Shown: in pieces, positions 5,327 through 64,000 of the stretch
Layout of the letters: each line of letters begins with the position of its first letter
Position numbering within the stretch: position 1 is the stretch's first letter
NCBI GenBank assembly: GCA_964016885.1
Contig: OZ024743.1
Span: forward strand, 304,048,001-304,112,000
Reading direction: 5' to 3'
DNA length: 64,000 nt
Source: Eledone cirrhosa
Lineage: Eukaryota
Notes under the pieces: model-generated
What the model was told of the DNA's origin: nothing
Seen by the model: the letters and a program-made list of their open reading frames with translations, nothing else
Database searches by the model: none
Made by a program: the position numbers and the translations under genes

Positions 5327-5454
5327 ACACACACACACACATATATATATATATATTTTTTTTTAGTATATGTTGGTTGTATACCAACACCTGAGTATGC
5401 AGGTTGGAGCACTCGACGTTATGCGCAGGTTGGTTTGGTTACTCCGGAGTAATG

Positions 5455-5618: not shown

Positions 5619-5680
<62 letters not shown>

Positions 5681-24536: not shown

Positions 24537-24544
<8 letters not shown>

Positions 24545-24790
24545 TCGAACAAATTGATGAAGGAGAAGGAAGCCGTTAAAACACATTTATAAAAAGCTCT
24601 TACATATGTTTCGTCCAATGGGGCTTGTCTGAGGCAGTTAAATAGGCAAATAATGAAATAATGAACACTTATTAAATTATTTGCCTATCTAACTGCCTCA
24701 GACGAGCCCCATTGGGCGAAACATATGCAAGAGCTTTTTATAAATGTGTTTTAACGGCTTGCTTCTCTTTTGTCAATTATTTCGATTATA
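24537..24790. repeat. Inverted pseudo-LTR pair, each arm with a hammerhead-like motif (variant core CAGACGA)
   Basis: 24537-24654 mirrors 24676-24790. The motif is CAGACGA-GCCC-CATT-GGGC-GAAAC-ATAT-G(T/C)A at 24699-24729. Confidence 0.75.
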
Positions 24791-27914: not shown

Positions 27915-30900
27915 ACCTTGATCATCTTGACCGACCAGTCTGTCGAGCGTCCATTCGGCGCCGTTGGTTACAGCACGCCGTCCAATTCTCACTGGATCGT
28001 GTAGTCCAAATCGTATTTCTAAAATCGTAACTCCACCTTCGTGGAGGTCTTCCGAGTCTCGTTTCCGCTCGCGGGGGTACCACTCAGCAACTGCGCGGTT
28101 CCTCCGATTATCGGTGAAGCGGGCGACGTGTCCAGCCCTTCTGAACTTGCTGCGCATATATTCCGTTATGACGTCCCTCACGCCGGACTTCTGTCTAATG
28201 ACTTCGCTCCTGGTGTGATCTCTCAACGAGATTCCTAGCATTGCTCTCTCCATGGTTCTTTGAGCCGTTACCAGCCTCTGCTCTTCTCTCTTCGTTGTAG
28301 CACAATTTTCACTGCCATATAACATTGTAGGTAAAACTGTGCTATTGAAGAGGTTGGCGCGGGTGGTCTTGTCCAACCTCCCCTTGAGAAAATCCCTTAT
28401 GCTGTTGAACGCCTTCCATCCGGCCAATTACTCTCCGCGAGATCTCCCACTCAATGTCACGGCGCATGTTCACTTCTTGTCCTAGGTAGACGTATTCCTC
28501 CACCTTCTCTATCTCATCACCGCCAACCACCATTCGACCTGTTGGTACGTTGTCGGACCGCATGAACTTCGTTTTCATGCGGTTCATCTTGAGGCCTACT
28601 GCAGAGTTTTTGATGTCGAGCTCCGTCAACATGGTCTTAATCTGATCCGTGGTTTCAGCGATGCCTAAGATGTCATCAGCGAAACGGAGGTGGGTAAGTA
28701 TCTCACCCTTGATTTTGACACCGCCTTGCTATTCAATGCCTCTGATGATCTGCTGGAGACACGCGGTGAAAAGTTTTGGAGGGATCGTATTCCCTTGCTT
28801 CACTCCCTTCTCGACCGGCACTCGTACGGGTGATGACAGCAGAGCAATGTCGGTGGTGCATCCGGAACTCGCCTCCTTGAGCTGTGGAACGTATTGCGCC
28901 TCGACTCCTTGCCTCTGCAGCGAGTTCAGCACTGCGTTGGTTTCGACACTGTCGAAGGCCTTCTCGTAGTCTAGAAACGCAACGCAAAGAGGCATCTTGT
29001 ACTCTTTCGCTCGCTCAAGCAGTTGTGTCAGAGTAAATATGTGGTCCATCGTGCTGTAGTTCTTCCGGAAGCCGGCTTGCTCTCTCGGTTGCTGTTCGTC
29101 CAGATGACGTGATAACCTGTTCAGGATTATCTTCGTGAACAGCTTGTACACGTGAGACAACAGGCATATGAGTCGGTAGTTCTTCAGATCTTCTCTATCG
29201 CCCTTCTTGTATAGCAGGATGGTATTCGACTCTTTCCACTGCGAGGGTATTTCTCCCTCGTCTAGATAGTGTGTTAATCGCTCGACGAGGATTTTCCAGA
29301 GCTGCTCTCCGCCTGATTTCAACACCTCCGATGTTATGCCGCCTTTCTCTGGCGCCTTTCCGCTTTTCATCAAGCCGATGTCTCTGTTGACCTCACCGAC
29401 AATGATGGATGGCACATTTTCTTCCCGTTGGGGTGACCGCAACGGCTGCATATTCCCGGGGACTTGAAGAGCTTGGTGTAGAAGTCTTCGCAAACCTTTT
29501 CTACCTCAGACTTGTTGCTGACCGGTACTCCAGCTGTGTTCTTCAGGGTGGTCAACTCCGATCTATACATTGCCATGTCCCTCTCGCATTTCTTGAGGTT
29601 CTTCTTTTCATTTGCGACCTTCAGGAGCTTCTCGATCCGGTATGACTCAAGTCTCTCTACAGCTGTTGACGTATCACTCTGCGCAGTAGGGAATATTCGA
29701 GGTGATCTTCAAGTGTCCACTTCATATTCTTCCTCTTCTCAAGCAACTTCATAGTTTCCTCCGAGACTCTTCCCTTCCGCTCGCTCTGGCACACAACCTT
29801 AGCCTTCCTCAAGCACTCCTTCAGTTTCCTTATCAGTGAGTCGTAGTCAGCGTCTATGCCATCTCCTTGGCGCCAGTTTTCCTGTATGATGGCTTCCTGC
29901 AGCTGCGCCTCGTTGAAGACCCGGACGCCCAATGCGCCCACTTCTCCCTCGTCCGGTCGATGACGACCATCGCCATCACCAGACGATGACCACTGCCAGT
30001 GTTGAATGGTGTTATGACGGAGACGTCTTGCAGTATGCGTAGCTTGTCGACCAAAATGTAGTCAATCTCGTTTCGGTGCTCAGAATTAGGCGATACCCAG
30101 GTCCATCTCTTCTCCTTCTTCTTCCTGAATAGGCTGTTTTCGATGTAGAGTCGTCTCGCCCCCGCCATGGTGACCATACGCTCTCCTCTCTCATTTCGTT
30201 CTCCTAGGCCGAATCTTCCGACATACTCTTCCCCTTGCCGACCTTTGCGTTGTAGTCTCCCATTACGACGGTGTAAGTGGACTTAACAGCTAGCACTTTG
30301 TCTAGCTGGCAATAGAATTCTTCCACTTCATCGTCGGCTGGCACTTGTGTGAGCGTAGGTCTGGACGATATTGAGGGTGGCATTCTCTGAGAGGTTCACG
30401 TTCAGTACACCAATACGTAAGGATATGAACTGGCAAGAAACGACCTTCGAATCCCAATCCTTGCTTATGATGAACCCTGTACCTCCGACTGATCTGGCAC
30501 CCTCTGCTGTCCCGAGTCTCACGGGCATCCATCTTGCCATCGCGAACTCGTCTCATTCTTATGGCGTATCTCGCACAGCCCTAAAACGTTGTACCTGATC
30601 TTCTTCTCCTCCATTAGGTGGTTCAGTCTTTGCCCCCCTCCATCCTGCCAAAGACCTGCAGTTGTAGGTGCATATGGCAAGATTAATTATGTTCCTTGGC
30701 GGCCTCGGGAACTTGTGATTCTTAGCAGACTCTCGTCGCTCGGGTTGGACACCGCCGTCCTGGAGTGGCCCGATTGACGCGCAGGGTATTGAAGCCCTTT
30801 TCTTCGTGCTGTTTTAACCATAAGATGACGCCATCCCACTGGCTGGACGGGAAGGCCGGTATCTCTTCAGTTTAGCTAGATTTTGAACTCTAGAAGACGA

Positions 30901-37157: not shown

Positions 37158-37244
37158 TAATAATAAATTTGAAGACTAAAATCCAAAGAGGGCTCGATAA
37201 GGATAAATAAATATCAAATATATAAGAACCGTAGAGTAAATATT

Positions 37245-37778
37245 TATTAAAATAACAGATTAAAGTTTAAGCAAAGGATCGCTGCTTTCACCCTTAACGG
37301 GATCTTCTGAAACTAAAAAAGTCAATCTGTGAACGCAGAAGTGAATATTTCAAAAAAAGTTGCTGCCGGAGGAAGACAGGAAGTCGATACTTTGGTTCGT
37401 GGAAACGTTCCCTGGCAAAGAACGAAAAAAAAACGAAGATAATACGTCATTATTTGGAGAGCTGAAAACAATTACACGCAAAGACAAGACCACGTTTATG
37501 GTATAAATGAAGTCGTAGACTAATAAACGTGGTCTTGTCTTTGCGTGTAATTGTTTTCACCGCTCCAAATAATGACGTATTATCTTCGTTTTTTTCCGGT
37601 TCTTTTCCAGGGAACGATTCCACGAACCAAAGTATCATCTTCCTCTCTTCCTCCGGTTGCAATGTTTTTTGAAATATATACTTCTGCGTTCACAGATTGA
37701 CTTTTTTAGTTTCAGAAGATCCCGTTAAGGGTGAAAGCAGCGATTCTTTGCTTAAACTTTAATCTGTTATTTTAATAT
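37245..37778. repeat. ~255-bp-arm imperfect palindrome (inverted pseudo-LTRs) with variant hammerhead (CAGAAGA) in each arm
   Basis: 37248-37499 mirrors 37523-37775. The motif is GTTT-CAGAAGA-TCCC-GTTAA-GGGT-GAAA-GCA...TGC-TT-AAAC at 37709-37757. Confidence 0.8.
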
Positions 37779-37792
37779 ATATATATATATAC

Positions 37793-46648: not shown

Positions 46649-46659
46649 AAATAATAATA

Positions 46660-46715
<56 letters not shown>
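46649..46715. repeat. (AAT)n tract: 3' tail/target of Tx1-like copy 1
   Basis: About 22 AAT units directly after the element's AATAAA signal (minus strand). Confidence 0.9.
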
Positions 46716-46717
<2 letters not shown>

Positions 46718-46978
46718 TTTATTTATTAACCACAAGGGTTTACATAAAGTAGACATTAAGGACAGTGCAGGACAATGCAGGACGGTACAAATGGGCATTT
46801 CTGCGTGTAAAAAAAACAAAAACAGAGGATGTAACAAAAATAACAATGAAAATAACAATGAAAAATTCCCCAATAGGGGGGAGACTTCGGAGGGACATTT
46901 GTGGAGAAAGCCCAGTAAAAAGCCACAATGACCCTGACCACCAAGGCAAGTGCCCTCTCCCAGTTTTCCACCTTTAGT

Positions 46979-49900
46979 TTACAGATATATACTCAGAGTC
47001 GGCCCATTCACTCGGGCCATTCTTGCTTCTCTCACCCATCTTTCAACAAAATGCTGGGAAGAGAGCACTTCCTTCTCTACTCTGATTTTCCTTTTCAAAT
47101 GAAATTTGAAAAAGTCAATCAGAGCATCACCGAAGAGGTAAGTGCTCGTCTTCAGCCCTTTCAAACGTGTCCACCATACTATCTCTTTCGCCATGGCCAC
47201 CAGACAGATAAAAACTGCCTGCCCTTCCCGGCTAAAGGAGGAGGGCGGGGAAATCCTCACGATAGACTCAGATGATAGCTGGATCCGTCCTAAACGCGAC
47301 AGCAGGTGTTCGACATAAACCCACAAGTCAGCAATTTTCGGACACTGGACGAGTGCGTGCAGGACGGTTTCGTCGCCCTGCGCGCATCTCGGACATGCCC
47401 GGCTGACGGCACCTCCATGCCTGTAGAGTTTATCCCGAACTGGCAAGGCTCCTCGGTAGCACTGCCAGGCCAGAGATTTCTGGAAGTTGTCCATAGGCCC
47501 TGGCCCGAAAGTTCTTCCGAAGAGATTGGCTAGTTGATTTTCGTCGACGCCTAGAGTTTCCCCAAGTACGTCGTCGCTCTTCCCCTCCACTAATCCTCTA
47601 TAGAACGCCGAGGTGGAGTTTCCACCGATCACATTGCCCGATTGGTCGAGGGCTGTGAGCGCCTGAAGACATTCCAGTCTCCAGGCGCTCCCTCTCGGTC
47701 TTCGCTTGACCCAGGACTGCAGCTCCGTCAAGGAAACGAGCTGGGGAAAAACGCGTCTAGCAAACGGCGACCACACCTGATCACCGTCGAGGAAGAGGTG
47801 GAGATGTCGTAGCCTGAGCGCGTGCCTGCGCATCATCAGCCACGGCATGCCCAGCCCTCCACGTAGCGGGTGTTGACAACAGATGGACCGCCTGACCATC
47901 GGAGCACGTCCCTTCCACAAAAAGCGAAAGAGCAAACGCTCCAGCGCAGTCAGGCGAGGCTTAGGACAAGGTACGACGGTTAGGCGGTAGCAGATGACAG
48001 ACGCGATGTACGCGTTAGCCACCTCCGCTCGACCTTTCAGGGATAGCTTCCTCTCCGCCCATTTCTGGGTGAGAGAAGCCACCCTGCTCGTCACCTCGTC
48101 CCAGTTTTTGTCCGTCTGGAGGTCCGGACCGAACCAGACCCCTAGCAATTTAACCGGTCCGTCCGTCCAGCGCCCGACGACGCTGTTGGACGGCATGGAC
48201 CTGCCTCTCCAGGTGCCGAGCTGCAGGCCCACTGACTTTTCCTGGTTGATCATTGCTCCTGTCACCGCTTCGTATTCTCTTAGTGTAGTGCCGATCGCCT
48301 CGATGTGTTTGGCGTTCGACACCACTACGGTGACATCGTCCGCGTATGCTGATACGGATCTTCCGCATCCTAGTTCGCGCGGGACCCCCCTCAACGTCTC
48401 CAGTTTGTGCAGTAATGGCTCGAGAGTCAATACGTACAAGAGGGACGAGAGGGGACATCCTTGGCGGACCGAGCGCATGATGTTGAACGGTTCCGACAGG
48501 TGACCGTTCACTCTCACCACAGAGCAGATGTCGCTGTGCATGGCAGCGATCCAGCCTCTGAAGACGGGCCCAAAGCCAGCCGCCCTCAGGACTGCCGCTA
48601 GGTAACGATGGTCGACCCTATCGAAAGCTTTCGACTGATCTAAATTGATCAAGGACCCACCCGTGCTAGGTTCCCTAGCTACCCTCTCTACGATGTATCG
48701 CATGAGGTGGAGGTTGTCGTGGATGGATCTGTCGGGAATGGCGCATGTCTGCGCCTCTCCCACCAGACCACCAACGACAAGCGCCAACCTCTTTGCTAGC
48801 ACCTTGGCCAAAATCTTAAACTCTGTGTTTAGCAGAGTTATGGGCCGGAAATTTTCTATGTTATCCCCCTTGTTCGGATCCTTTCTCAGCAGTGCCACCG
48901 CTCCTCGGCTCACAGAACTGGGAATTCTCCCGTTCTGTTGCCAGTTGCAGTAGACGTCCGCCAAGAGGCCTCCAAACAAGTCTGGCATCTGTACGTAAAG
49001 TTCATAGGGCAGACCATCCAAACCAGGCGATTTACCCCTTGTGCAGCCAGACATTGCCTACCTTACTTCAGCGGCTGTTATCGGCTTTTCGCAACACTTC
49101 GCCTCAGTGGCCGAGAGCCGCGGCAGTCCGTCGAGGTAGACACTAAAGTCCATCCCTCTACCCGGCCCACCGCTGCCCCCGAACAGCTGAGCGAAGTGTC
49201 GCTGAAAAGCTTCACACATTTGCCCGGGATCGAGTAGCATGCGCCCGTCGTGGTCCACCAAAGACCGGATCGTGGCTTTGTTGCCACGACGCGCCTCCGC
49301 CACTCGGGCCCATTGAACGGCTTTCGTCCCCTCGTGTCTGAGAGCACGCACCCTTGCTCTGACAACGCAGCCTTCGTGCTTTGCATTGAAGAATTGGTCA
49401 AGGGCCAATTTCGCCGCAAGCACGTCGGTCGCAATGCCTTTGCTAAGCGCCTCGTCTAATTTTCTAACTAGTTCTCCCTCTGCTCTATTTTTCTCTATTG
49501 CTAAAGCCTTACTAAATCTAATCGATTCTATTCTAATCGCTCTTTTCAGAGCAAACCACCACTTGTTGTTGACGATGGCCCCCGTCAACGCCCGCTTAAC
49601 TAGTTCGCTAATCCGGTCTCTGTAGGCCTTGCGCGCTGGTAAGGACGCGTTTAGCTTCCAGTAGCCGGGTCCTCGTCTATGAAGCCTATCTAAGTCAAGC
49701 ACACAGATCACGAATTTGTGGTCCGTGTAGCTGACTATCTTGAATTGTGGACAGCCTATGCTAGACCTATCTATTTCCCTACAAAATACTCTATCTAGAT
49801 ATGATCTGGATGACCCTATGCGGTTTGTCCAAGTCCACATTGGCACATTCGGGAAATCCAATCGGTACCTGTCAGACAGTTCAAAACGCCTGAGCAGGTT

Positions 49901-50398
49901 GGTGAGGCTCTTGCACCCTCCACCCCTATCCGCTAATCCCACACAGTCCCAGCGTGCATCTAAGATCCCGTTCCAGTCGCCCACTAACACTAAAGAGCGG
50001 GACGTTCCAAGAAAGGTCTCCAGACGCCGGAAGAAATCAGGCCGCCCTGCTCCTGTCGGGGCATAGACGGCCACTAGCCTGAAAGCTTGCCCGTATCCGC
50101 TGGTCACGTCCAGCACCACCAGCTTACCCTCTGGGTCCAGGAAGATGGCCCGTATGGCGAGATCCAAACCTCTCCGAAAAAGTACAGCAATTCTTCCACC
50201 GGATCCAGGACGGCTGGGAGATGCGTACACATCGTAGCCGCCGAAGATCGGTGCGAAGGCCCGTGCTTCGGAGATTCTGGTCTCGCTGATGGCCACTACA
50301 TCTATGTTTAGTGACCTGAGGTCGTTGAGCAGGTGACCCTGCTTCCATGACGACCCCAAGCCACGCGCATTTATGCTGCCTATTCTGAGTGAGGTCAT
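46979..50398 (-). pseudogene. ORF2 (APE endonuclease + RT + C-terminal zinc finger), 1139 codons interrupted by one in-frame TAG at 49058-49060
   Basis: SINARGL, VAISET, VGDWNGILD, SYLDR, YTDHK; KSPGLDG, FRPITLLN, DQSKAFDRVDH, VRQGCPLS, AYADDV; CPRC..DETVLHALVQC. The TAG is GAG (Glu) in copies 2 and 3. Confidence 0.93.
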
Positions 50399-50433
50399 GT
50401 TTAAAATAGAGTGGAAAAGATGGGAAAGACCAC

Positions 50434-52530
50434 TTACCGTACTTTTGGTAGAGGAGGGATGGTTTTTACATCCCTTTTCACTTGATCGTCTGGTGAAGGG
50501 ACCGTTGAATCGTCCCTTCGGCAGGTCGTCGGCTCTTCTAAGAGAATGTCTGAGTATACTCTTCGATTGATGGTTCCTCCCAGGTCCCTGAAATCACCAA
50601 CTGCGTTGGGGAATTTCGTTTTAATATTTGTGTATTGTTTCTGTGCTATTTTTAGCAGTCTTATGTTAGTTGGCGTTTTGATTGGTGCTGGTATTATGTA
50701 GTCCTGTTGTGAAATGTCTGTGTGTTCAATTATGTAAGTCATTAGTTTCTTGTTGTGTGTATTTATTGCCGTGCATTTGTTTTTCTGGGGGTGGGGTGTG
50801 GTTCTGCTATTTTCTTGTCGTTGTTGCTGGGTGTGTGTGTTTTGTTGTTGTGTTTGCGATGTTGGTGCTTGTGGTGGTGGTGTTGAAGGTGTTGTTGGCG
50901 GTGGGGTTGTCGCCGGTGGTGATGGTGGCGCTAGTGTGGGTGGTGATGGTGTTGGTGTTGTTGCTGCTGTGGGTTTCTTTGCAGTAGACTTTACCCTTTT
51001 CTCATTTCTTTCCTCCCTTTTCAAAGGCGACGATGCGCTGCTTCTGCGTTTGTGCCTTCTTACGACCTTTTGCCATCTCTCTCCCACCTCACACTCCATG
51101 TCTGATTCTGTGAGGTCGGGGAGGGGTACCAACTCCACTCTTTCACTTGTTGTTGTTGGTGATGTTTGCACTGGAGTCTCTGTTGCAGCTGCATTTGGTA
51201 TTGCTGTTGTTGTTGTTAGTATTTCCACTGCTGCTGCTGTTTTTGATTTCCGTGGAGTGGGTATGGGTGCCACGGGCCTATCGTTCCTGGTTGCCACTTG
51301 TCCTGTTGCTGGTAGCCGTGGAGCCGGATTCGGAAGGAGGGGGGTTTTCTTCTTTTCCAGGGTCTTCTCGTTGCAGAAGGCCCTGAGGTGAGTCTTCGAT
51401 CCACAGCGAAAGCATTTCGGGCGTTTGCCCTCAACACTTATGGGCAGTTGAGTGCCGTTATCGAATTCTATCACATCCGGGATAGCTTCGATGAACTCCT
51501 GGTTGGTTTGGATTAGCATCTCAATGGAGGAGCCGACCCAATCTTCTCTTACTTTTTTCTGTACTTGCAGTACAGTTGTTTTGTCCTCGATTCCGACGAG
51601 GACAGACGCGGCCAGCCAAGAAGGGGTCATTCCGGGGGGGACGTGGGTCAGTTTGACCCTCACAATTTTTTGCCCACAGTAGGAGGGCACCAACACCATT
51701 TCCTCGCTCCTTAGGGTCACTACTGATTGGGCCTTTGCCTCCTGGGGTGTGGCAAAAAGTACGTCTACGGTGGCATATTTTTTGCCTCGGGTGATGTGCG
51801 TTTTCCGCTGCCACACAGACCCCAAGGCTTTTTGTATTTGGGCCTCTGTGGCTCTTTCCACCCTACGGGATTTTGTACTTACTGTACGGTACGTGACCGT
51901 ACAGTGCTCTTGGGTTTCGAAAAAATTTTTCGCTGCCTTGCAGATTGCTCGGTGTCCGTTCTTTGTCACCATCTTCTTCGCTTCCTCTAATTCCTCATTT
52001 GTTATGAGGATTGTTTCCAAGTTTTTCGCAATACCTGCAAATGAGATTGGTTTTTCTCTGCTGTTGTTGTTGTCGTCAGAGCTGCTGGTACTTTTGTTGT
52101 TGCTGCAGGTACTACGACTACTGCCTCCGCCGCTGTTGCTGTGGTTGTTGTTGGTGTTGCTGCTGCTAATGCTGTTGTTGTTTATGCTGCTGGTGATGCT
52201 GTTGCGGCTGCTACTGTTGTTTTCATTGTCACTGTTGCTGTTGTTATTACGGCTGCTACTGCTATTATTCCTGACGTCAGACGAATGAACTGGGTTTTCG
52301 TATTTCCCGCACACCTGTTTCGTCGCTGTCGTCGTCGTCGTGGAGAAACCTTGCACGCTTTGCACGAGACTTTTCTTTTCTTTCGTCACTTGCGAAAGAG
52401 AAGGGAGGGAGAGAGACACATTTAAAGAAGGGAGGGAGAGAGACAATCTTCTCTCTGCTGTAGTGATGATTGAGGAAGAAGAAGACGGAATGAGTGGGAG
52501 TGACGTATGAAATTTCTTTTTCGCAGCCAT
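50434..52530 (-). CDS. Retrotransposon ORF1 (gag-like nucleic-acid-binding protein), 698 aa, intact
   Basis: CFRCGSKTHLRAFC (CX2CX4HX4C) knuckle, with N/S-rich and P/T-rich low-complexity segments. Ends 35 bp before the ORF2 ATG. Confidence 0.9.
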   Translation of the reverse strand: MAAKKKFHTSLPLIPSSSSSIITTAERRLSLSLPSLNVSLSLPSLSQVTKEKKSLVQSVQGFSTTTTTATKQVCGKYENPVHSSDVRNNSSSSRNNNSNSDNENNSSSRNSITSSINNNSISSSNTNNNHSNSGGGSSRSTCSNNKSTSSSDDNNNSREKPISFAGIAKNLETILITNEELEEAKKMVTKNGHRAICKAAKNFFETQEHCTVTYRTVSTKSRRVERATEAQIQKALGSVWQRKTHITRGKKYATVDVLFATPQEAKAQSVVTLRSEEMVLVPSYCGQKIVRVKLTHVPPGMTPSWLAASVLVGIEDKTTVLQVQKKVREDWVGSSIEMLIQTNQEFIEAIPDVIEFDNGTQLPISVEGKRPKCFRCGSKTHLRAFCNEKTLEKKKTPLLPNPAPRLPATGQVATRNDRPVAPIPTPRKSKTAAAVEILTTTTAIPNAAATETPVQTSPTTTSERVELVPLPDLTESDMECEVGERWQKVVRRHKRRSSASSPLKREERNEKRVKSTAKKPTAATTPTPSPPTLAPPSPPATTPPPTTPSTPPPQAPTSQTQQQNTHTQQQRQENSRTTPHPQKNKCTAINTHNKKLMTYIIEHTDISQQDYIIPAPIKTPTNIRLLKIAQKQYTNIKTKFPNAVGDFRDLGGTINRRVYSDILLEEPTTCRRDDSTVPSPDDQVKRDVKTIPPLPKVR

Positions 52531-53020
52531 GTTGTTTTTTGTTTAAAATGAATATTGGGTACAAAACCCCAATAACTGGTTATTTAACCCCGAAGGGCCA
52601 AATAACGGACAGAAAGACCCCTCTCACGAGGAGGAGGGTGTCTTTATCTACAAGTTGGTCTAAGTTTTAAACAATTTACAATTGTTAAAGCGTTCAAAAT
52701 TTACAGTACCTTACAGAGCCGAGCCTCCGTCAACCATAGCATTCAATAATAATAATAATAATAATAATAATGATTTCTTTATTAACCACAAGGGTTTACA
52801 TAAAGTAGACATTAAGGACAGTGCAGGACAATGCAGGACGGTACAAATGGGCATTTCTGCGTGTAAAAAACAAAAACAGAGGATGTAACAAAAATAACAA
52901 TGAAAAATTCCCCAATAGGGGGGAGACTTCGGAGGGACATTTGTGGAGAAAGCCCAGTAAAAAGCCACAATAACCCTGACCACCAAGGCAAGTGCCCTCT
53001 CCCAGTTTTCCACCTTTAAT

Positions 53021-56000
53021 TTACAGATATATGCTCAGAGTAGGCCCATTCACTCGGGCCATTCTTGCTTCTCTCACCCATCTTTCAACAAAATGCTGGG
53101 AAGAGAGCACTTCCCTCTCTACTCTGATTTTCCTTTTCAAATGAAATTTGAAAAAGTCAATCAGAGCATCATCGAAGAGGTAAGTGCTCGTCTTCAGCCC
53201 TTTCAAACGTGTCCACCATACTATCTCTTTCGCCATGGCCACCAGGCAGATAAAAACTGCCTGCCCTTCCCGGCTAAAGGAGGAGGGCGGGGCAATCCTC
53301 ACGATGGACTCAGATGATAGCCGGATCCGTCCTAAACGCGACAGCAGGTGTTCGACATAAACCCACAAGTCAGCAATTTTCGGACACTGGACGAGTGCGT
53401 GCAGGACGGTTTCGTCGCACTGCGCGCATCTCGGACATGCCCGGCTGACGGCACCTCCATGCCTGTAGAGTTTATCCCGAACTGGCAAGGCTCCTCGGTA
53501 GCACTGCCAGGCCAGAGATTTCTGGAAGTTGTCCATAGGCCCTGGCCCGAAAGTTCTTCCGAAGAGATTGGCTAGTTGATTTTCGTCGACGCCTAGAGTT
53601 TCCCCAAGTACGTCGTCGCTCTTCCCCTCCACTAATCCTCTATAGAACGCCGAGGTGGAGTTTCCACCGATCACATTGCCCGATTGGTCGAGGGCTGTGA
53701 GCGCCTGAAGACATTCCAGTCTCCAGGCGCTCCCTCTCGGTCTTCGCTTGACCCAGGACTGCAGCTCCGTCAAGGAAACGAGCTGGGGAAACACGCGTCT
53801 AGCAAACGGCGACCACACCTGATCACCGTCGAGGAAGAGGTGGAGATGTCGTAGCCTGAGCGCGTGCCTGCGCATCATCAGCCACGGCATGCCCAGCCCT
53901 CCACGTAGCGGGTGTTGACAACAGATGGACCGCCTGACCATCGGGGCGCGTCCCTTCCACAAAAAGCGAAAGAGCAAACGCTCCAGCACAGTCAGGCGAG
54001 GCTTAGGACAAGGTACGACGGTCAGGCGGTAGCAGATGACGGACGCGATGTACGCGTTAGCCACCTCCGCTCGACCTTTCAGGGATAGCTTCCTCTCGGC
54101 CCATTTCTGGGTGAGAGAAGCCACCCTGCTCGTCACCTCGTCCCAGTTTTTGTCCGTCTGGAGGTCCGGACCGAACCAGACCCCTAGCAATTTAACCGGT
54201 CCGTCCGTCCAGCGTCCGACGACGCTGTTGGACGGCATGGACCTGCCTCTCCAGGTGCCGAGCTGCAGGCCCACTGACTTTTCCTGGTTGATCATTGCTC
54301 CTGTCACCGCTTCGTATTCTCTTAGTGTAGTGCCGATCGCCTCGATGTGTTTGGCATTCGACACCACTACGGTGACATCGTCCGCATATGCTGATACGGA
54401 TCTTCCGCATCCTAGTTCGCGCGGGACCCCCCTCAACGTCTCTAGTTTGTGCAGTAATGGCTCGAGAGTCAATACGTACAAGAGGGACGAGAGGGGACAT
54501 CCTTGGCGGACCGAGCGCATGATGTTGAACGGTTCCGACAGGTGACCGTTCACTCTCACCACAGAGCAGATATCGCTGTGCGTGGCAGCGATCCAGCCTC
54601 TGAAGACGGGCCCAAAGCCAGCCGCCCTCAGGACTGCCGCTAGGTAACGATGGTCGACCCTATCGAAAGCTTTCGACTGATCTAAATTGATCAAGGACCC
54701 ACCCGTGCCAGGTTCCCTAGCTACCCTCTCTACGATGTATCGCATGAGGTGGAGGTTGTCGTGGATGGATCTGTCGGGAATGGCGCATGTCTGCGCCTCT
54801 CCCACCAGACCACCAACGACAAGCGCCAACCTCTTTGCTAGCACCTTGGCCAAAATCTTAAACTCTGTGTTTAGCAGAGTTATGGGCCGGAAATTGTCTA
54901 TGTTATCCCCCTTGTTCGGATCCTTTCTCAGCAGTGCCACCGCTCCTCGGCTCACAGAACTGGGAATTCTCCCGTTCTGTTGCCAGTTGCAGTAGACGTC
55001 CGCCAAGAGGCCTCCGAACAAGTCTGGCATCTGTACGTAAAGTTCATAGGGCAGACCATCCAAACCAGGCGATTTACCCCTTGTGCAGCCAGTCATTGCC
55101 TCCCGTACTTCAGCGGCTGTTATCGGCTTTTCGCAACACCTCGCCTCAGTGGCCGAGAGCCGCGGCAGTCCGTCGAGGTAGACACTAAAGTCCATCCCTC
55201 TACCCGGCCCCCCGCTGCCCCCGAACAGCTGAGCGAAGTGTCGCTGAAAAGCTTCACACATTTGCCCGGGATCGAGTAGCATGCGCCCGTCGTGGTCCAC
55301 CAAAGACCGGATCGTGGCTTTGTTGCCACGACGCGCCTCCGCCACTCGGGCCCATTGAACGGCTTTCGTCCCCTCGTGTCTGAGAGCACGCACCCTAGCT
55401 CTGACAACGCAGCCTTCGTGCTTTGCATTGAAGAATTGGTCAAGGGCCAATTTCGCCGCAAGCACGTCTCGCAATGCCTTTGCTAAGCGCCTCGTCTTAT
55501 TTTCTAACTAGTTCTCCCTCTGCTCTATTTTTCTCTATTGCTAAAGCCTTACTAAACCTAATCGATTCTATTCTAATCGCTCTTTTCAGAGCAAACCACC
55601 ACTTGTTGTTGACGATGGCCCCCGTCAACGCCCGCTTAACTAGTTCGCTAATCCGGTCTCTGTAGGCCTTGCGCGCTGGTAAGGACGCGTTTAGCTTCCA
55701 GTAGCCGGGTCCTCGTCTATGAAGCCTATCTAAGTCAAGCACACAGGTCACGAACTTGTGGTCCGTGTAGCTGACTATCTTGAATTGTGGACAGCCTATG
55801 CTAGACCTATCTATTTCCCTACAAAATATTCTATCTAGATATGATCTGGATGACCCTATGCGGTTTGTCCAAGTCCACATTGGCACATTCGGGAGATCCA
55901 ATCGGTACCTGTCAGACAGTTCAAAACGCCTGAGCAGGTTGGTGAGGCTCTTGCACCCTCCACCCCTATCCGCTAATCCCACACAGTCCCAGCGTGCATC

Positions 56001-56438
56001 TAAGATCCCGTTCCAGTCGCCCACTAACACTAAAGAGCGGGACGTTCCAAGAAAGGTCTCCAGACGCCGGAAGAAATCTGGCCGCCCTGCTCCTGTCGGG
56101 GCATAGACGGCCACTAGCCTGAAAGCTTGCCCGTCTCCGCTGGTCACGTCCAGCACCACCAGCTTACCCTCTGGGTCCAGGAAGATGGCCCGTATGGCGA
56201 GATCCAAACCTCTCCGAAAAAGCACAGCAACTCCTCCACCGGATCCAGGACGGCTGGGAGATGCGTACACATCGTAGCCGCCGAAGATTGGTGCGAAGGC
56301 CCGTGCTTCGGAGATTCTGGTCTCGCTGATGGCCACTACATCTATGTTTAGTGACCTGAGGTCGTTGAGCAGGTGACCCTGCTTCCATGACGACCCCAAG
56401 CCACGCGCATTTATGCTGCCTATTCTGAGTGAGGTCAT
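53021..56438 (-). pseudogene. ORF2 of copy 2, broken by TTA>TAA (55497-55499) and a 2-nt deletion (~55467)
   Basis: Span is 3418 bp versus 3420 bp in copy 1. APE (313 aa) and RT (817 aa) ORFs are otherwise open. Confidence 0.93.
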
Positions 56439-56473
56439 GTTTAAAATAGAGTGGAAAAGATGGGAAAGACCAC

Positions 56474-58570
56474 TTACCGTACTTTTGGTAGAGGAGGGAT
56501 GGTTTTTACATCCCTTTTCACTTGATCGTCTGGTGAAGGGACCGTTGAATCGTCCCTTCGGCTGGTCGTCGGCTCTTCTAAGAGAATGTCTGAATATACT
56601 CTTCGATTGATGGTTCCTCCTAGGTCCCTGAAATCACCAACTGCGTTGGGGAATTTCGTTTTAATGTTTGTGTATTGTTTCTGTGCTATTTTTAGCAGTC
56701 TTATGTTAGTTGGCGTTTTGATTGGTGCTGGTATTATGTAGTCCTGTTGTGAAATGTCTGTGTGTTCAATTATGTAAGTCATTAGTTTCTTGTTGTGTGT
56801 GTTTATTGCCGTGCATTTGTTTTTCTGGGGGTGGGGTGTGGTTCTGCTATTTTCTTGTCGTTGTTGCTGGGTGTGTGTGTTTTGTTGTTGTGTTTGCGAT
56901 GTTGGTGCTTGTGGTGGTGGTGTTGAAGGTGTTGTTGGCGGTGGGGTTGTCGCCGGTGGTGATGGTGGTGCTGGTGTGGGTGGTGATGGTGTTGGTGGTG
57001 TTGCTGCTGTGGGTCTCTTTGCAGTAGACTTTACCCTTTTCTCATTTCTTTCCTCCCTTTTCAAAGGCGACGATGCGCTGCTTCTGCGTTTGTGCCTTCT
57101 TGCGACCTTTTGCCATCCCTCTCCCACCTCACACTCCATGTCTGATTCTGTAAGGTCGGGGAGGGGTACCAGCTCCACTCTTTCACTTGTTGTTGTTGGT
57201 GATGTTTGCACTGGTGTCTCTGTTGCAGCTGCATTTGGTATTGCTGTTGTTGTTGTTAATATTTCCACTGCTGCTGCTGTCTTTGATTTCCGTGGAGTGG
57301 GTATGGGTGCCACGGGCCTATCGTTCCTGGTTGCCACTTGTCCTGTTGCTGGTAGCCGTGGAGCCGGATTCGGAAGGAGGGGGGTTTTCTTCTTTTCCAG
57401 GGTCTTCTCGTTGCAGAAGGCCCTGAGGTGAGTCTTCGATCCACAGCGAAAGCATTTCGGGCGTTTGCCCTCAACACTTATGGGCAGTTGAGTGCCGTTA
57501 TCGAAGTCTATCACATCCGGGATAGCTTCGATGCACTCCTGGTTGGTTTGGATTAGCATCTCAATGGAGGAGCCGACCCAATCTTCTCTTACTTTTTTCT
57601 GTACTTGCAGTACAGTTGTTTTGTCCTCGATTCCGACGAGGACAGACGCGGCCAGCCAAGAAGGGGTCATTCCGGGGGGGACGTGGGTCAGTTTGACCCT
57701 CACAATTTTTTGCCCGCAGTAGGAGGGCACCAACACCATTTCCTCGCTCCTTAGGGTCACTACTGATTGGGCCTTTGCCTCCTGGGGTGTGCCAAAAAGT
57801 ACGTCTACGGTGGCGTATTTTTTGCCTCGGGTGATGTGCGTTTTCCTCTGCCACACAGACCCCAAGGCTTTTTGTATTTGGGCCTCTGTGGCTCTTTCCA
57901 CCCTACGGGATTTTGTACTTACTGTACGGTACGTGACCGTACAGTGCTCTTGGGTTTCGAAAAGATTTTTCGCTGCCTTGCAGATTGCTCGGTGTCCGTT
58001 CTTTGTCACCATCTTCTTCGCTTCCTCTAATTCCTCATTTGTTATGAGGATTGTTTCCAAGTTTTTCGCAATACCTGCAAATGAGATTGGTTTTTCTCTG
58101 CTGTTGTTGTTGTCGTCAGAGCTGCTGGTACTTTTGTTGTTGCTGCAGGTACTACGACTACTGCCTCCGCCGCTGTTGCTGTGGTTGTTGTTGGTGTTGC
58201 TGCTGCTAATGCTGTTGTTGTTTATGCTACTGGTGATGCTGTTGCGGCTGCTACTGTTGTTTTCATTGTCACTGTTGCTGTTGTTATTACGGCTGCTACT
58301 GCTATTATTCCTGACGTCAGACGAATGAACTGGGTTTTCGTATTTCCCGCACACCTGTTTCGTCGCTGTCGTCGTCGTCGTGGAGAAACCTTGCACGCTT
58401 TGCACGAGACTTTTCTTTTCTTTCATCGCTTGCGAAAGAGAAGGGAGGGAGAGAGACACATTTAAAGAAGGGAGGGAGAGAGACAATCTTCTCTCTGCTG
58501 TAGTGATGATTGAGGAAGAAGAAGACGGAATGAGTGGGAGTGACGTATGAAATTTCTTTTTCGTAGCCAT
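56474..58570 (-). CDS. Retrotransposon ORF1 of copy 2, intact (698 aa from the ATG at 58570)
   Basis: Colinear with copy 1 ORF1, and the CCHC knuckle is conserved. Confidence 0.9.
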   Translation of the reverse strand: MATKKKFHTSLPLIPSSSSSIITTAERRLSLSLPSLNVSLSLPSLSQAMKEKKSLVQSVQGFSTTTTTATKQVCGKYENPVHSSDVRNNSSSSRNNNSNSDNENNSSSRNSITSSINNNSISSSNTNNNHSNSGGGSSRSTCSNNKSTSSSDDNNNSREKPISFAGIAKNLETILITNEELEEAKKMVTKNGHRAICKAAKNLFETQEHCTVTYRTVSTKSRRVERATEAQIQKALGSVWQRKTHITRGKKYATVDVLFGTPQEAKAQSVVTLRSEEMVLVPSYCGQKIVRVKLTHVPPGMTPSWLAASVLVGIEDKTTVLQVQKKVREDWVGSSIEMLIQTNQECIEAIPDVIDFDNGTQLPISVEGKRPKCFRCGSKTHLRAFCNEKTLEKKKTPLLPNPAPRLPATGQVATRNDRPVAPIPTPRKSKTAAAVEILTTTTAIPNAAATETPVQTSPTTTSERVELVPLPDLTESDMECEVGEGWQKVARRHKRRSSASSPLKREERNEKRVKSTAKRPTAATPPTPSPPTPAPPSPPATTPPPTTPSTPPPQAPTSQTQQQNTHTQQQRQENSRTTPHPQKNKCTAINTHNKKLMTYIIEHTDISQQDYIIPAPIKTPTNIRLLKIAQKQYTNIKTKFPNAVGDFRDLGGTINRRVYSDILLEEPTTSRRDDSTVPSPDDQVKRDVKTIPPLPKVR

Positions 58571-58814
58571 GTTTTTTTTGTTTAAAATGAAATTTTGGGT
58601 ACAAAACCCCAATAACTGGTTATTTAACCCCGAAGGGCCAAATAACGGACAGAAAGACCCCTCTCACGAGGAGGAGGGTGTCTTTATCAACAATTTGGTT
58701 CAAGTTTTAAACAATTTACAATTGTTTTAACGGTTAAGAATTACTATACCTTACAGAGCCGAGCCTCCGTCAACCATGGCATTCAATAATAATAATAATA
58801 ATAATAATAATAAT

Positions 58815-61512
58815 CAGAGCCTTGGTGCAAGAAACGACTGAGTGGTCAAATCAGGGAAATAAGAAATGACATTGGAAAGCTTGAGTCCCTACTGAATGGG
58901 ACACTAAAAAACATAGACACTAAAAATAGACTGGAAATATAGTACAAAGGAAAAAGCTAAATATTATCATAGAGGAACTGAAGCAACGCATTGTAGCAAA
59001 GAGTGAAAAAATCAGGCGATACGAGAACAGAGTCAGTCAGTATAGACAGAACCTCATGTTCGACAACAACCAGAAGATGCTGTTTGGACACCTTGAAGGG
59101 AAAGAAAGAGGCAACGACTTGATCCCTGAGGCGGAACAAACTAAAACATTCTGGAGAGGAATATGGGAGCAGGATGTTAAAAATAATGACCAGGCAGTGT
59201 GGATTGAGACAGTACAGAAGAAGATTAATGAACAGGCACACTAACAAACCGATTTGAGTATCACAGTTGAAACTCTTAAGGGGCAGTCCCAAAAAACTAA
59301 CCAACTGGAAATCACCAGGCCCAGATGGTGTGCAGGGGTATTGGATTAAAAATATAACATCCCTCCACCCGAAACTGACAACCATGTTCAATGACTGCTT
59401 GATGTCAGGTGAGGTACCAGAGTGGTTGACAAAAGTTACCACAGTTCTGATAATGAAAAACCGAATCAAGGGTAATGATGTTACCAACTATAGATCTATC
59501 ACATCTCTGTCCGTAATGTGGAAACTGTTGACAAACATTATGTCTGAGGAAATCTACCATCACCTCCACACAAACAACGTGTTACCGGACGAACAGAAAG
59601 GATGCCGAAAGAAGTCACGTGGTACAAAGGACCAGTTACTTATTGATAAGAGGGTAATGAGGAATTGCAAGAGGAGACACACTGGTCTTGCCATGGCATG
59701 GATAGACTACAAAAGGCATTTGACATGGTGCCTCATTCTTGGATCACCACAAGCCTGGAGTTCTTCAAGGTAGCAGATAACATCAGACAGTTGTTGGGCA
59801 AAAGTATGAAGTCCTGGGAAACAGAGTTAACATCAGCTGGAGAATCCATGGGAAGCGTGAAGATCAAGAGAGGAATCCTTCGGGGAGATAGTCTGTCCCC
59901 TCTGTTGTTTGTCCTTGCCCTGATGCCCGTGACCAGTGTACTGCGAAAAGTGAGAGCAGGATACAGGTTGGGAAAGGGAAGGCTTATCATCAATCACCTC
60001 CTCTTCATGGACGATCTTAAGCTCTTCGGAAAGAGTGAGAAGGAGTTGGATGTGCTTGTTGACACTGTCCGTATTTTCAGCAATGGTATATGTATGCAAT
60101 TTGGTATTAGTAAGTGTGGAGTCCTTGTGATGAAGAGGGGTAAATTGAGCAGAAGTGACGGAATCCAGGTACAAACAGGTGAGATGATAAAGAAATTGAC
60201 TCTGAAGAAGGATACAACTATTTGGGTGTTCTGGAGGCTGATGACATCAAGAACAAAAACATGAAGGAATTGATAAAACTGAATACATTCGGAGAGTAAG
60301 GAGCGTATTAAAGTCACATCTGAACAGTAGGAATGCCATAAATGCAGTAAATTCCCGAGGTGTGTCTATTATTAGGTACAGTGCGGGAATTCTGAGATGG
60401 AATGTTGCTGAACAAAAAGAAATGGATAGGAAGACTAGGAAGTTATTGACTATCTACAACATGTTCCACAAGAGGAGTGATGTCGATTGACTCTACTTAA
60501 GGAGATATCAAGGTGGAAGAGGTCTTATCAGCATAGATGACTGTGTTCAGATGGAGAAAACAACCTACACAAATACGTGACTGATAGTAAGGAGCCAATG
60601 CTCAGAACTGTACTGAAGGAGGGGACAATAGACCAGGGGATGCCCAAGGAGGAAATAACATCAAGGAGGAAGAGCAGCGTTCAGGAAAAATCCCTTCATA
60701 GTACCTTCTTTGAGAAAACTGAATTCAGAGATCCACAGACATGGAACTGGTTGAAAAGAGGAGACCTTAAAAAGGCTACAGAAGGAATGTTAATGGCTGC
60801 GCAAAAGCAGGCCCTCAAAACGAAGTGGTTGAAACACCATATTTACAAGAAGGAGGCTAGCCCACTGTGTAGGATCTGTGAAGAGAGAGAGGAGACTGTG
60901 GCGCACTTTGTATCCGAGTGTAAACACCCAGCCCAGACTCACTATAAGGCCTGGAGATATGATGTGATGGGCAGGGTGATCCACTTGCATCTATGCAAGG
61001 TAAACAATTTACCACATTCTGAGAAGTGGTATGAGCATAAGCCAGAGTCGGTGATAGAAAACGATCAGGTGAAGGTGCTGTGGGATTTTAGAATACAGAC
61101 GGACAAGAAACTGGAACACAATAGACCTGACCACGTGGTTGTGGACACAGAAAAAGATCGTGCCTGATTGTGGATGTGGCCTGCCCATTCGACACGAGAG
61201 TGCAAGAGAAGGAGAGGGAGAAAATTAACCGATACCAGGACTTAAAGTGGGAGGTAAAAAGGATTTGGAACTGCCATGAAGTCAAAGTGGTCCCGATTGT
61301 GATAAGCGCACTAAGTACTATCTCAAAAAGTTTCCAGGGATTGTTAAAGAAAATTGGCCCCTTCACGCTTTTTGGAACGCTTCAAAAGGCATGCTTGCTG
61401 GGAATAGCAAGAACACTCCGATACGTCATGAATATCTGAGGCTGCAAGTAGTGGCTTGATATTCATTTCAACAAACTTTCCAGTTAACTAACATCTATGA
61501 CTGAGACTCAAA

Positions 61513-61513
<1 letters not shown>
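58815..61513 (+). mobile_element. 5'-truncated, decayed R4/Dong-clade non-LTR retrotransposon (RT + CCHC + restriction-like endonuclease)
   Basis: EPWCKKRLSGQI; NWKSPGPDGVQGYWIK; EQKGCRKKSRGTKDQLLID; AWIDY.KAFDMVPH; RGILRGDSLSPLLF; HLLFMDDLKLF; CRICEEREETVAHFVSEC; WDFRIQTD..NRPD...DVACPFD..EKINRYQDL. (TAA)n on both sides. Confidence 0.93.
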
Positions 61514-61550
<37 letters not shown>

Positions 61551-61570
61551 TTAATAATAATAATAATAAT

Positions 61571-64000
61571 GCTTTCTTTATTAACCACATGGGTCCACAT
61601 AAAGTAGACATGAAGGACAGTACAGGACAATACAGGGTGGTACAAATGGGCATTTATGCATGTAAAAAACAAGAAATAGAGGATGTAATAATAGAACAAT
61701 AAAAAAATTCCCCAATAGGGGGGTGACTGCCGAGGGACATTCGTGGAGAAAGCCCATTAAAAGGCCACAGTGACCCTGACCACCAGGGCAAGTGCTCTCC
61801 AAGTTTTCCACCTTTAATTTACAGACACATACTCAGAGTAGGCCCATTCACTCGGGCCGTTCTTGCCTCTCTCACCCATCTTTCAACAAAATGCTGGGAA
61901 GAGAGCACTTCCCTTTCTACCCTGATTTTCCTTTTCAAATGAAATTTAAGAAGTTAATCAGGGCATCACCGAAGAGGTAAGTGCTCGTCTTCAGCCCTTT
62001 CAAACGTGTCCAGCATACTATCTATCTCGCCATGACCACCAGACAGATAAAAACTGCCTGCCTTTCCCGGCTAAAGGAGGGGCAAGAGGGCGGGGCAATA
62101 CTCACGATGGACTCAGCTGATAGCTGGATCCGTCCTACACGTGACAGCAGGTGTTCGACCTAAACCCACAAGTCAGCAATGCTCGGACACTGGACGAGTG
62201 TGTGCAGGACGGTTTCGTCGCCCTGCGCGCAGCACGGACATGCCCGGATGACGGCACCTCCATGCCTGTAGAGTTTATCCCGAACAGGCAAAGCTCCTCG
62301 GTAGCACTGCCAGGCCAGGGATTTCTGGAAGTTGTTCATAGGCCCAGGCCCGAAAGTCCTTCCGAAGAGATTGGCTAGTTGATTTTCGTCGACGCCTAGA
62401 GTTTCTCCAAGTACGTCGTCGCTCTTCCCCTCCACTAATCCCCTATAGAACGCCAAGGTGGAGTTTCCACCGATCACATTGCCCGATTGGTCGAGGGCTG
62501 TGAGCGCCTGAAGACATTCCAGTCTCCAAGCGTTCCCTCTCGGTCTTTGCTTGATCCAGGACTGCAGCTCCGTCAAGGAGACGAGCTGGGGAAAGACGCG
62601 TCTAGCAAACGGAGACCACAACTGATCTCCGTCGAGGAAGAGGTGATGTCGTAGCCTGAGCGCGTGTCTGCGCATCATCAGCCACGGCATTCCCAGCCCT
62701 CCACGTAGCGGGTGTTGACAGCAGATGGACCGCCTGACGATCGGAGCACGTCCCTTCCACAAAAAGCGAAAGAACAAACGCTCCAGCGCAGTCAGGTGGG
62801 GCTTAGGACAAGGTACGACGGTCAGGCGGTAATAGATGACGGACGCGATATACGGGTTAGCCACCTCCGCTCGACCTTTCAGTGATAGCTTCCTCTCGGC
62901 CCATTTCTGTGTGAGAGAAGCAACCCTGCTCGTCACCTCGTCCCAGTTTTTGTCCGTCTGGAGATCCGGACAGAACCAGACCCCGAGCAATTAAACCGGT
63001 CCGACGTTGTTGGACGGCATGGACCTGCCTCTCCAGGTGCCGAGTTGCAGGCCCACTGACTTTTCCTGGTTGATCATTTCTCCTGTCACCGCTTCGTATT
63101 CTCTTAGTGTAGTGCCGATCGCCTCGATGTGTTTGGCGTTCGACACCACTACGGTGACGTCGTCCGCATATGCTGACACGGATCTTCCGCATCCTAGTTT
63201 GCGCGCGACCCCCCTCAACGTCTCCAGTTTGTGCAGTAATGGCTCGAGAGTCAATACGTACAAGAGGGACGAGAGGGGACATCCTTGGCGGACCGAGCGT
63301 ATGATGTTGAACCGTTCTGAAAGGTGACCGTTCACTCTCACCACAGAGCAGATGTCGCTGTTCATGGCAGCGATCCAGCCTCTGAAGACAGGCCCAAAGC
63401 GAGCCGCCCTCAGGACTGCCGTTAGGTAACGATGGTCGACCCTATCGAAAGCTTTCGACTGATCTAAATTGATCAATGATCTACCCGTGCCAGGTTCCCT
63501 AGCTACCCTCTCTACGATGTATCGCATGAGGTGGAGGTTGTCGTGGATGGATCTGTTGGGAATGGCCCATGTCTGCGCCTCTCCCACCAGAACACCAACG
63601 ACAAGCGCCAACCTCTTTGCTAGCACCTTGGCCAAAATCTTGAACTCTTTAATTAGCAGGGTTATGGGCCTAAAATTATCTATGTTATCACCATTGTTCG
63701 GATCCTTTCTCAGCAGCGCCACAGCTCCTCGGTTTACAGAGCTGGGAATTCTCGCGTTCTGTTGCCAGTTGCAGTAGACGTCCGCCAAGAGGCCTCCGAA
63801 AAAGTCTGGCATCTGTACGGAAAGTTCATAGGGCAGACCATCCAAACCAGGCGATTTACCCCTTGTGCAGCCAGTCATTGCCTCCCGTACTTCAGCGGCT
63901 GTTATAGGCTTTTCGCAACACTCCACCTCAGTGGGCCGAGAGCCGCGGCAGTACGTCGAGGTAGACACTAAAGTCCATCCCTCGATCCGGCCCGCCGCTG
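61571..64000 (-). mobile_element. Tx1/L1-clade retrotransposon copy 3 (older, frameshifted; continues beyond the window)
   Basis: 3'UTR and RT/zinc-finger region homologous to copies 1 and 2 but with more substitutions, a deletion near 63000, a stop at 62160-62162 and an insertion near 62080. Confidence 0.93.

What the first reader, a model, noticed from the sequence alone, without database searches (positions are those of the whole stretch)
46649..64000. (AAT)n-targeted head-to-tail Tx1 array whose own tails regenerate the target, co-colonised by a Dong/R4 element
Seen: all four junctions are (AAT)n tracts (46649-46715, 52745-52771, 58785-58814, 61514-61570) with no intervening host DNA. Both complete Tx1 5' ends begin at the same base next to (ATT)n, and the R4/Dong element lies antiparallel between two such tracts. 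Known: Dong/R4 elements target (TAA)n, and some Tx1-clade families (Kibi, Koshi) target other microsatellites. Inference: this is an (ATT)n-specific Tx1 family whose (ATT)n tail recreates its target, forming a growing landing pad shared by an APE-type and a REL-type element. Relative decay suggests copy 3 and Dong came first, then copies 2 and 1.
Basis: partly seen in the sequence, partly recalled or inferred. Interest (0 to 1): 0.78.

Follow-up and report, generated by a model that had tools for sequence, protein, structure and literature searches.

The report
ATT-microsatellite-targeting LINE array, head-restored target
Several unrelated jumping genes in this animal genome all land in ATT repeats and pile up there, and the main one likely keeps its landing site alive with its head rather than its tail, probably by using the repeat as its own transcription start.

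Summary
The array is real and larger than reported: six LINEs and seven (AAT)n tracts over 27.7 kb, running past the window. The main element is a young Tx1-like family. 2,291 of 2,369 exact 5' ends genome-wide follow (ATT)3, and 595 head-to-tail junctions exist. Copies 1 and 2 are independent insertions. Two Dong/R4-like families, older Tx1-like families and a SINE use the same tracts.

The 'own tail regenerates the target' idea is mostly not supported. Where target-site duplications (TSDs) can be read, they start right at the element's end with no added repeat; at most two extra units were seen. The signal is at the head instead. Full-length copies have a sharp floor of six ATT units upstream. 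In three of four 5' module types a DPE-like promoter motif sits exactly +28 from that sixth unit. The RNA therefore likely starts in the tract and carries an (AUU)6 leader that anneals back (inferred, untested). In 12 of 23 tandem pairs (a partly selected set) the upstream copy carries its neighbour's first 0.56-4.1 kb.

Verdict: a new variant of known target-specific LINE biology with a testable promoter-target coupling.

The parts
46650..46715 (.). (AAT)22 tract with one AGT; 3' flank of Tx1-like copy 1 and left end of the array
46716..52744 (-). Tx1-like type A copy 1, 6,029 bp. ORF1 52530-50434 (698 aa, one CCHC knuckle); ORF2 50398-46979 (APE-RT-CCHC) with a stop at 49058-49060. First ~95 bp are of an older subfamily, the body is young
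52730..52735 (-). DPE-like hexamer at element position 10-15 of copy 1 (predicted +28 to +33 from position 52762 in the tract)
   Evidence: function inferred
52745..52771 (.). (AAT)9 spacer between copy 2's 3' end and copy 1's 5' end; holds the predicted start site of copy 1
   Evidence: start site inferred
52772..58784 (-). Tx1-like type A copy 2, 6,013 bp. ORF1 58570-56474; ORF2 56438-53021 with a 2-bp deletion near 55500
58770..58775 (-). DPE-like hexamer at element position 10-15 of copy 2
   Evidence: function inferred
58785..58814 (.). (AAT)10 tract between copy 2's 5' end and the truncated 5' end of the Dong-like element
58815..61513 (+). 5'-truncated, frameshifted Dong/R4-like element (RT, CCHC, PD..D..K restriction-like nuclease); its ORF normally starts about 790 bp further upstream
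61514..61570 (.). (AAT)19 tract with one ATT; tail-to-tail junction of Dong and copy 3
61571..64000 (-). 3' part of Tx1-like type B copy 3. The full element runs to G000:C4:304114935; it shares ORF2 with type A but has a different 5'UTR/ORF1

Best explanation
This is one of hundreds of pile-ups made by repeated, independent insertion of a young Tx1-like LINE family and of Dong/R4-like LINEs into the same ATT/AAT microsatellite, and the Tx1-like element likely restores its target through where it cuts and through a repeat leader at its head, not through a long tail. Steps: (1) Shown: elements sit immediately 5' of an ATT, Tx1 on the ATT strand and Dong on the AAT strand. Inferred: the APE domain nicks there and 1-2 AUU units at the RNA end prime reverse transcription. 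(2) Shown: truncated copies and a SINE with a similar 3' end leave 8-20 bp TSDs that begin at that ATT with no added repeat. (3) Shown: full-length copies have at least six ATT units upstream, do not duplicate 3' flank interruptions, and carry a DPE-like motif +28 from the sixth unit. Inferred: Pol II starts 18 nt inside the tract, the RNA carries (AUU)6, and the cDNA end anneals to the tract, giving a uniform junction and a new promoter-competent copy. (4) Shown: many tandem copies carry their downstream neighbour's tract and 5' end. Inferred: a cDNA primed upstream of a resident completes its 5' end on that resident. Each insertion leaves usable tract on both sides, so arrays grow.
For: Specificity: 2,291 of 2,369 exact 5' 26-mers follow (ATT)3; background is 12 of 93,200. 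All 32 full-length copies with both flanks have ATT on both sides; 45 of 53 3' ends taken in genome order have at least 4 units. Independence: copies 1 and 2 differ by 1.32% over the last 2.4 kb, and each is closer to dispersed copies (0.45%, 0.58%; 39 and 38 of 76 are closer). 595 tail-tract-head junctions exist. Floor: at least 4 units in 2,571, at least 6 in 2,419, at least 7 in 1,988, a loss of 3% per unit and then 18%; 99 of the first 100 listed spacers are 18 bp or longer. TSD contrast: a 3' flank interruption is duplicated at the 5' side in 9 of 19 truncated versus 0 of 15 non-tandem full-length copies (Fisher p=0.002, hand-scored). DPE-like motif at position 10: 85 of 88 type A, 4 of 5 and 2 of 2 in two type C clusters, 1 of 2 type Y. 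Chimeras. Co-occupants: all 24 Dong-type 3' ends found in 20 loci are followed by AAT; a second REL family is 36-44% identical; 44 of 49 SINE 3' ends start with ATT. Precedents: R2 leader annealing (PMC3774820); DPE at +28 to +32 in non-LTR promoters (PMC4748587).
Against: No RNA data for this organism were available, so the start site and leader are untested. Type B heads (0 of 27) lack the motif at position 10 yet also seem to have about six units. One young full-length copy has only 11 bp of tract (L159). Only 7 of 19 partial copies in the genome-order sample have ATT at their 5' boundary; the other 12 may be later deletions, but this was not shown. The TSD set was selected for a G/C within 12 bp of the 3' end, which works against seeing long tails, and single-base interruptions may be later mutations. 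Two spacers show up to 2 extra ATT. Many chimeric arrays were picked for shared interrupted tracts; among 10 unselected pairs 5 show 5'-side duplication and 1 shows 3' sharing (p=0.11). The window pair itself shows no 5' sharing. Tx1 placement has only moderate support (0.90). The DPE consensus used is recalled, and DPE function in this phylum was not checked.
Confidence: 0.7

Rival explanations
1. One reading: the element carries or synthesises an (ATT)n tail, and that tail is the new target.
For: 3' tracts are long (median 11 units in 53). About a quarter of type A heads follow another Tx1 3' end (595 junctions). Two spacers hold up to 2 ATT not in the target. The TSD sample is biased to short 3' runs.
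Against: In 9 of 9 readable truncated TSDs the 3' side has no more ATT than the target. 16 of 18 SINE non-repeat TSDs are at offset 0 (not selected on run length). A tail does not explain the six-unit floor at the 5' end.
Confidence: 0.15
2. The six-unit floor reflects a fixed 18-bp staggered cut, or a need for 18 bp of pure repeat, with no RNA leader; the DPE-like motif is incidental.
For: Several TSDs are 18 bp (L139, L185). Type B lacks the motif but has a similar floor.
Against: TSDs of truncated copies and SINEs vary from 8 to 20 bp. Full-length copies whose 3' flank leaves ATT after 1-3 units (L128, L131, L135, L147, L159, L322) show no duplication of that flank. The motif is kept at one position in otherwise diverged heads.
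Confidence: 0.3
3. The 5'-shared tandem copies arise after insertion, by unequal crossing-over or gene conversion between the empty and filled alleles or within arrays, not during reverse transcription.
For: One array (C2:43.4 Mb) has a middle copy with one neighbour's 5' part and the other's 3' part. Shared segments have zero differences even where the rest is 0.3-0.6% from the nearest outside copy.
Against: 3'-side sharing is seen in only 1 of 23 pairs. In two arrays the interrupted tract is duplicated while the bodies differ from base 7 or base 40.
Confidence: 0.35
4. The array is an assembly artefact or a single segmental duplication.
For: No read spanning the junctions was seen; the tool skipped the tracts.
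Against: The copies belong to different subclades, differ in 5'UTR and lesions, and span 0.5% to more than 13% divergence. The Dong truncation point is private to this locus among those fetched.
Confidence: 0.04

Closest known systems
Microsatellite-specific Tx1 families: Kibi (TC)n, Koshi (TTC)n, crocodilian (TTCC)n/(TTTC)n families (PMC4494074, passages and section 15; PMC3812793, passages)
   Same: Two-ORF APE-RT LINE inserting into a simple repeat; falls on the Tx1L side of the RT tree
   Different: Target is (ATT)n. It forms its own lineage with unnamed proteins at 39-79% identity, away from Tx1L. ORF2 is 1,139 aa. Kibi and Koshi proteins were not available for the tree.
Dong / R4 clade (PMC7998251, passages)
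   Same: Single ORF with RT, CCHC and restriction-like nuclease; 3' ends in (TAA)n
   Different: Nothing new seen except that two such families share tracts with APE elements in opposite orientation; no named Dong protein was available to test clade membership.
R2 elements whose RNA keeps upstream target sequence (PMC3774820, abstract and passages)
   Same: Target-derived leader lets the cDNA anneal and gives uniform 5' junctions
   Different: In R2 the leader comes from ribozyme cleavage of an rRNA co-transcript. Here it would come from Pol II initiation inside a microsatellite; Rfam found no ribozyme.
DPE-type internal promoters of jockey, Doc, F, G, I, TRAS1, SART1 and L1Tc (PMC4748587, passages)
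   Same: DPE at +28 to +32 from the start site
   Different: Here the motif is only 10 bp inside the element, so the initiator would lie in the target DNA. The TRAS1/SART1 paper could not be read, so a similar arrangement there is not excluded.
R1 tandem arrays at the 28S target, separated by the TSD (PMC3414825, passages); L1 chimeras formed on resident copies (recalled, paper not held)
   Same: Tandem pile-up at a regenerated target; homology-assisted 5' completion
   Different: Dispersed over hundreds of microsatellites, with several families and frequent natural chimeras.

Membership tests
Tx1 clade (L1 group) | Two ORFs; ORF2 with N-terminal APE, RT and C-terminal CCHC | tested here: met
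   PF03372, PF00078, PF13966; catalytic APE residues align with Tx1L; 20 of 30 fetched best-hit copies have both ORFs open
Tx1 clade (L1 group) | ORF1 with zinc knuckle rather than the vertebrate L1 ORF1 domain | tested here: met
   One CCHC at residue 373; no Pfam hit for ORF1
Tx1 clade (L1 group) | RT groups with Tx1L to the exclusion of L1 proper | tested here: inconclusive
   58-member clade with Xenopus Tx1L at SH-like 0.898, apart from vertebrate L1-like proteins; internal placement weak (0.38); 106 of 160 sequences used
Tx1 clade (L1 group) | Target-sequence preference (over 20% of flanks by the PMC4494074 criterion) | tested here: met
   96.7% of 5' ends
Kibi/Koshi lineage | (TC)n, (TTC)n, (TTCC)n or (TTTC)n target | tested here: not met
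   Target is (ATT)n
Kibi/Koshi lineage | RT clusters with named Kibi/Koshi proteins | not testable with these tools
   No named Kibi/Koshi protein returned; Repbase and Dfam not available
Dong/R4 clade | Single ORF with RT, CCHC and PD..D..K restriction-like endonuclease | tested here: met
Dong/R4 clade | (TAA)n target | tested here: met
   24 of 24 Dong-type 3' ends in 20 loci followed by AAT; full 5' ends mostly lay outside the fetched DNA
Dong/R4 clade | RT phylogeny with named Dong/R4 proteins; N-terminal Myb/SANT domain | not tested
   The 120 listed of 1,446 hits carried no family names; no profile search of the N-terminus was run
DPE-dependent core promoter | Motif at +28 to +32 from a mapped start site | tested here: inconclusive
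   Motif and spacing fit the six-unit floor for types A, C and Y, not B; start site not mapped
SINE partner of this LINE | Shared 3' end and shared insertion signature | tested here: met
   Similar last ~27 bases; 44 of 49 start with ATT, TSDs 10-20 bp; mobilisation itself untested

The most novel reading that the evidence does not exclude
A LINE that outsources its transcription start to its target. It keeps only the DPE half of a core promoter, takes the initiator from the (ATT)n tract 18 nt upstream, carries that tract in its RNA, and rebuilds the promoter at each insertion. Only on-target full-length copies would be expressed, and neighbours in the arrays would donate 5' modules, driving the 5'UTR/ORF1 swaps seen between subfamilies.
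Probability: 0.4. Interest if true: 0.72.

Novelty: new variant of a known kind. Interest (0 to 1): 0.55.

Why it matters
It adds (ATT)n to the known Tx1 targets and shows two unrelated nucleases (APE and REL) converging on one microsatellite from opposite strands, with about 2,400 near full-length young copies as natural replicates. If the leader model holds, target choice, promoter and 5' junction precision are one mechanism. That would explain the high share of full-length copies (45 of 100 3' ends pair with a type A head) and could be tested with one RACE experiment. The chimeras offer a visible route for the 5' module swaps seen in L1-group elements.

Tried and rejected
Segmental duplication of the window pair: rejected. 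HDV-like ribozyme at the 5' end: a hairpin loop resembles the R2 core quoted in PMC3414825, but no matching P1/P3 pairing was seen by eye and Rfam found nothing. Read support: no RNA holder was listed; contigs and RAD reads laid on 56500-64000 skipped the tracts and were uninformative; no read-level result for the left border was obtained. Earlier findings of the scan: none. Literature: searches found no (ATT)/(TAA)-targeting Tx1 family. Kojima and Fujiwara 2004, Gilbert 2005, Takahashi and Fujiwara 1999, the supplements of PMC4494074, Repbase and Dfam could not be read, so prior description there is not excluded. Order of copy 1 versus copy 2: tract lengths (10 and 9 units) and divergence fit either order.
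Full report
Setting. The window is G000:C4:304048001-304112000 in a 3.0-Gb animal genome. The repeat landscape looks octopus-like, but that is my inference and no call names the species. In Octopus vulgaris, Dong-R4 and L1-Tx1 are listed among recently active LINEs, with no target analysis in the part read (PMC13282606, part 1 of 3).

Observation. Copies 1 and 2 each have one ORF2 lesion. The array continues: copy 3 is a full-length type B element with a different 5'UTR/ORF1, followed by a tract, an older type C Tx1-like element, a tract, a second Dong and a last tract. That makes six LINEs and seven tracts in 27.7 kb.

Identity. ORF2 has APE, RT and a C-terminal CCHC; ORF1 has one knuckle. 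In an RT tree of 106 of 160 sequences, the element groups with Xenopus Tx1L and lancelet/coral Tx1-like proteins (support 0.90) apart from vertebrate L1-like proteins, as its own lineage. The REL element has RT, CCHC and a PD..D..K nuclease and lacks about 790 bp of ORF start. The label Dong/R4 rests on this anatomy and the TAA target (PMC7998251, passages), not on a tree.

Target specificity. Of 2,369 exact type A 5' ends, 2,291 follow (ATT)3 in register, against 12 of 93,200 host positions. There are 3,872 exact 3' ends and 595 tail-tract-head junctions. Among 53 3' ends taken in genome order, the next element after the tract was a Dong 3' end in 10, a second REL family in 7, a type A head in 5, a type B head in 5, a SINE in 5, and unclassified in 21. 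So this array is a typical example, not a special locus. Against a clean picture: only 7 of 19 partial copies in the genome-order sample have ATT at the 5' boundary. Large later deletions are common in these copies and may explain this, but I did not show it.

History. Copies 1 and 2 differ by 1.32% in the last 2.4 kb and are each closer to dispersed copies (0.45%, 0.58%). Distances to the nearest fetched copy rise to about 4% (Dong 1), 5-7% (copy 3), 6% (Dong 2) and over 13% (type C). The array grew by separate insertions, youngest on the left. The order of copies 1 and 2 is open.

Tail test. I fetched 40 copies chosen for a G/C within 12 bp of the 3' end and 20 chosen for a G/C within 15 bp of the 5' end, plus 12 more later. 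Nine of 19 truncated copies show a TSD of 8-18 bp starting at the element's end, and none of the nine has more ATT than its target. A 186-bp SINE with a similar 3' end behaves the same: 44 of 49 copies end before ATT, and 16 of 18 called non-repeat TSDs are at offset 0. Two tandem spacers show up to two extra units. The RNA tail therefore likely serves priming only. The selection works against long tails, so the rival is weakened rather than excluded.

Head signal. Full-length copies differ: 0 of 15 non-tandem copies duplicate a 3' flank interruption (p=0.002 versus truncated, hand-scored), even where the flank leaves ATT after one unit. Their upstream run has a step: at least 4 units in 2,571, at least 6 in 2,419, at least 7 in 1,988, and 99 of 100 listed spacers are 18 bp or longer. 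A DPE-like pentamer (consensus recalled) sits at element position 10 in 85 of 88 type A heads, in most type C heads and in 1 of 2 type Y heads, but in 0 of 27 type B heads. DPEs lie +28 to +32 from the start in non-LTR promoters (PMC4748587, passages), which puts +1 on the A of the sixth upstream ATT, the observed floor. I infer an (AUU)6 leader whose cDNA anneals to the tract, as proposed for R2 elements that keep upstream target sequence (PMC3774820, abstract and passages). This is untested; I put the leader at about 0.55 and the full promoter-coupling reading at 0.4.

Chimeras. Of 23 adjacent type A pairs compared, 12 share an identical first 0.56-4.1 kb and then diverge (one of them has only 3 differences in all), 6 more share an interrupted tract with 6-358 identical bases, 4 show nothing (including the window pair), and 1 shares the 3' part. 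In the clearest cases the rest of the upstream copy is 2 and 6 differences from an outside copy but 86 and 147 from its neighbour. Thirteen pairs came from arrays noticed for shared tracts; among the 10 others, 5 show 5'-side duplication. Completion of the cDNA on the resident is the favoured reading; unequal crossing-over explains at least one array and remains a serious rival. Copy 1 has an old-type first ~95 bp on a young body with no resident downstream, which fits descent from such a chimera.

Comparison and verdict. Known Tx1 microsatellite targets are TC, TTC, TTCC and TTTC (PMC4494074, passages and section 15; its supplements were unavailable; PMC3812793, passages). Tandem arrays at a regenerated target are known for R1 (PMC3414825, passages). 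LINE-SINE pairs sharing 3' ends are known (PMC4824008, passages). Ten searches found no ATT/TAA-targeting Tx1, but Repbase, Dfam and three key papers were out of reach. Interest 0.55.

Noticed in passing
window 11682-11867 and a second copy to about 12066 (+): tRNA-type SINE in tandem, with a 13-bp TSD repeated three times; its 3' end resembles the Tx1-like 3' end and it inserts before ATT, so it is a likely partner SINE
   Followed up: partly
window 2863-3443: Old fragment of a related Tx1-like ORF2 3' region (about 69% DNA identity)
   Followed up: no
window 28522-29406 (-): Distant RT similarity (24%) in a GC-richer stretch; probably another LINE
   Followed up: no
window 37237-37785, 1210-1508, 24541-24789, 5452-5621: Long self-inverted repeats (170-550 bp, 89-97% identity), possibly MITE-like elements
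   Followed up: no
G000:C4:304129642 onward (L032, L033): A second (AAT)n-linked array of older Tx1-like copies starts about 7 kb beyond the first
   Followed up: partly
G000:C1:57085549-57104371 (L245-L247), C1:441.09-441.11 Mb (L314-L317), C6:45.10 Mb (L277, L278): Clearest arrays of chimeric copies sharing an interrupted tract and 5' end with the downstream neighbour
   Followed up: yes
G000:C2:43.44-43.47 Mb (L037-L039): Middle copy has one neighbour's 5' part and the other's 3' part, consistent with unequal crossing-over
   Followed up: yes
e.g. L191, L211, L173: A second REL (Dong/R4-like) family, 36-44% amino-acid identity to the window's, also ends in the same tracts
   Followed up: partly
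type A, B, C and Y heads across fetched loci: At least four different 5'UTR/ORF1 modules; A and B share ORF2 from about 85 bp before its start codon, which points to module swapping
   Followed up: partly
window 58660-58690 (-), 5'UTR of copy 2: Conserved hairpin whose loop resembles the R2 ribozyme core; no full ribozyme found
   Followed up: partly
older copies: Frequent internal deletions of 0.5-3 kb in copies 3-10% diverged
   Followed up: no
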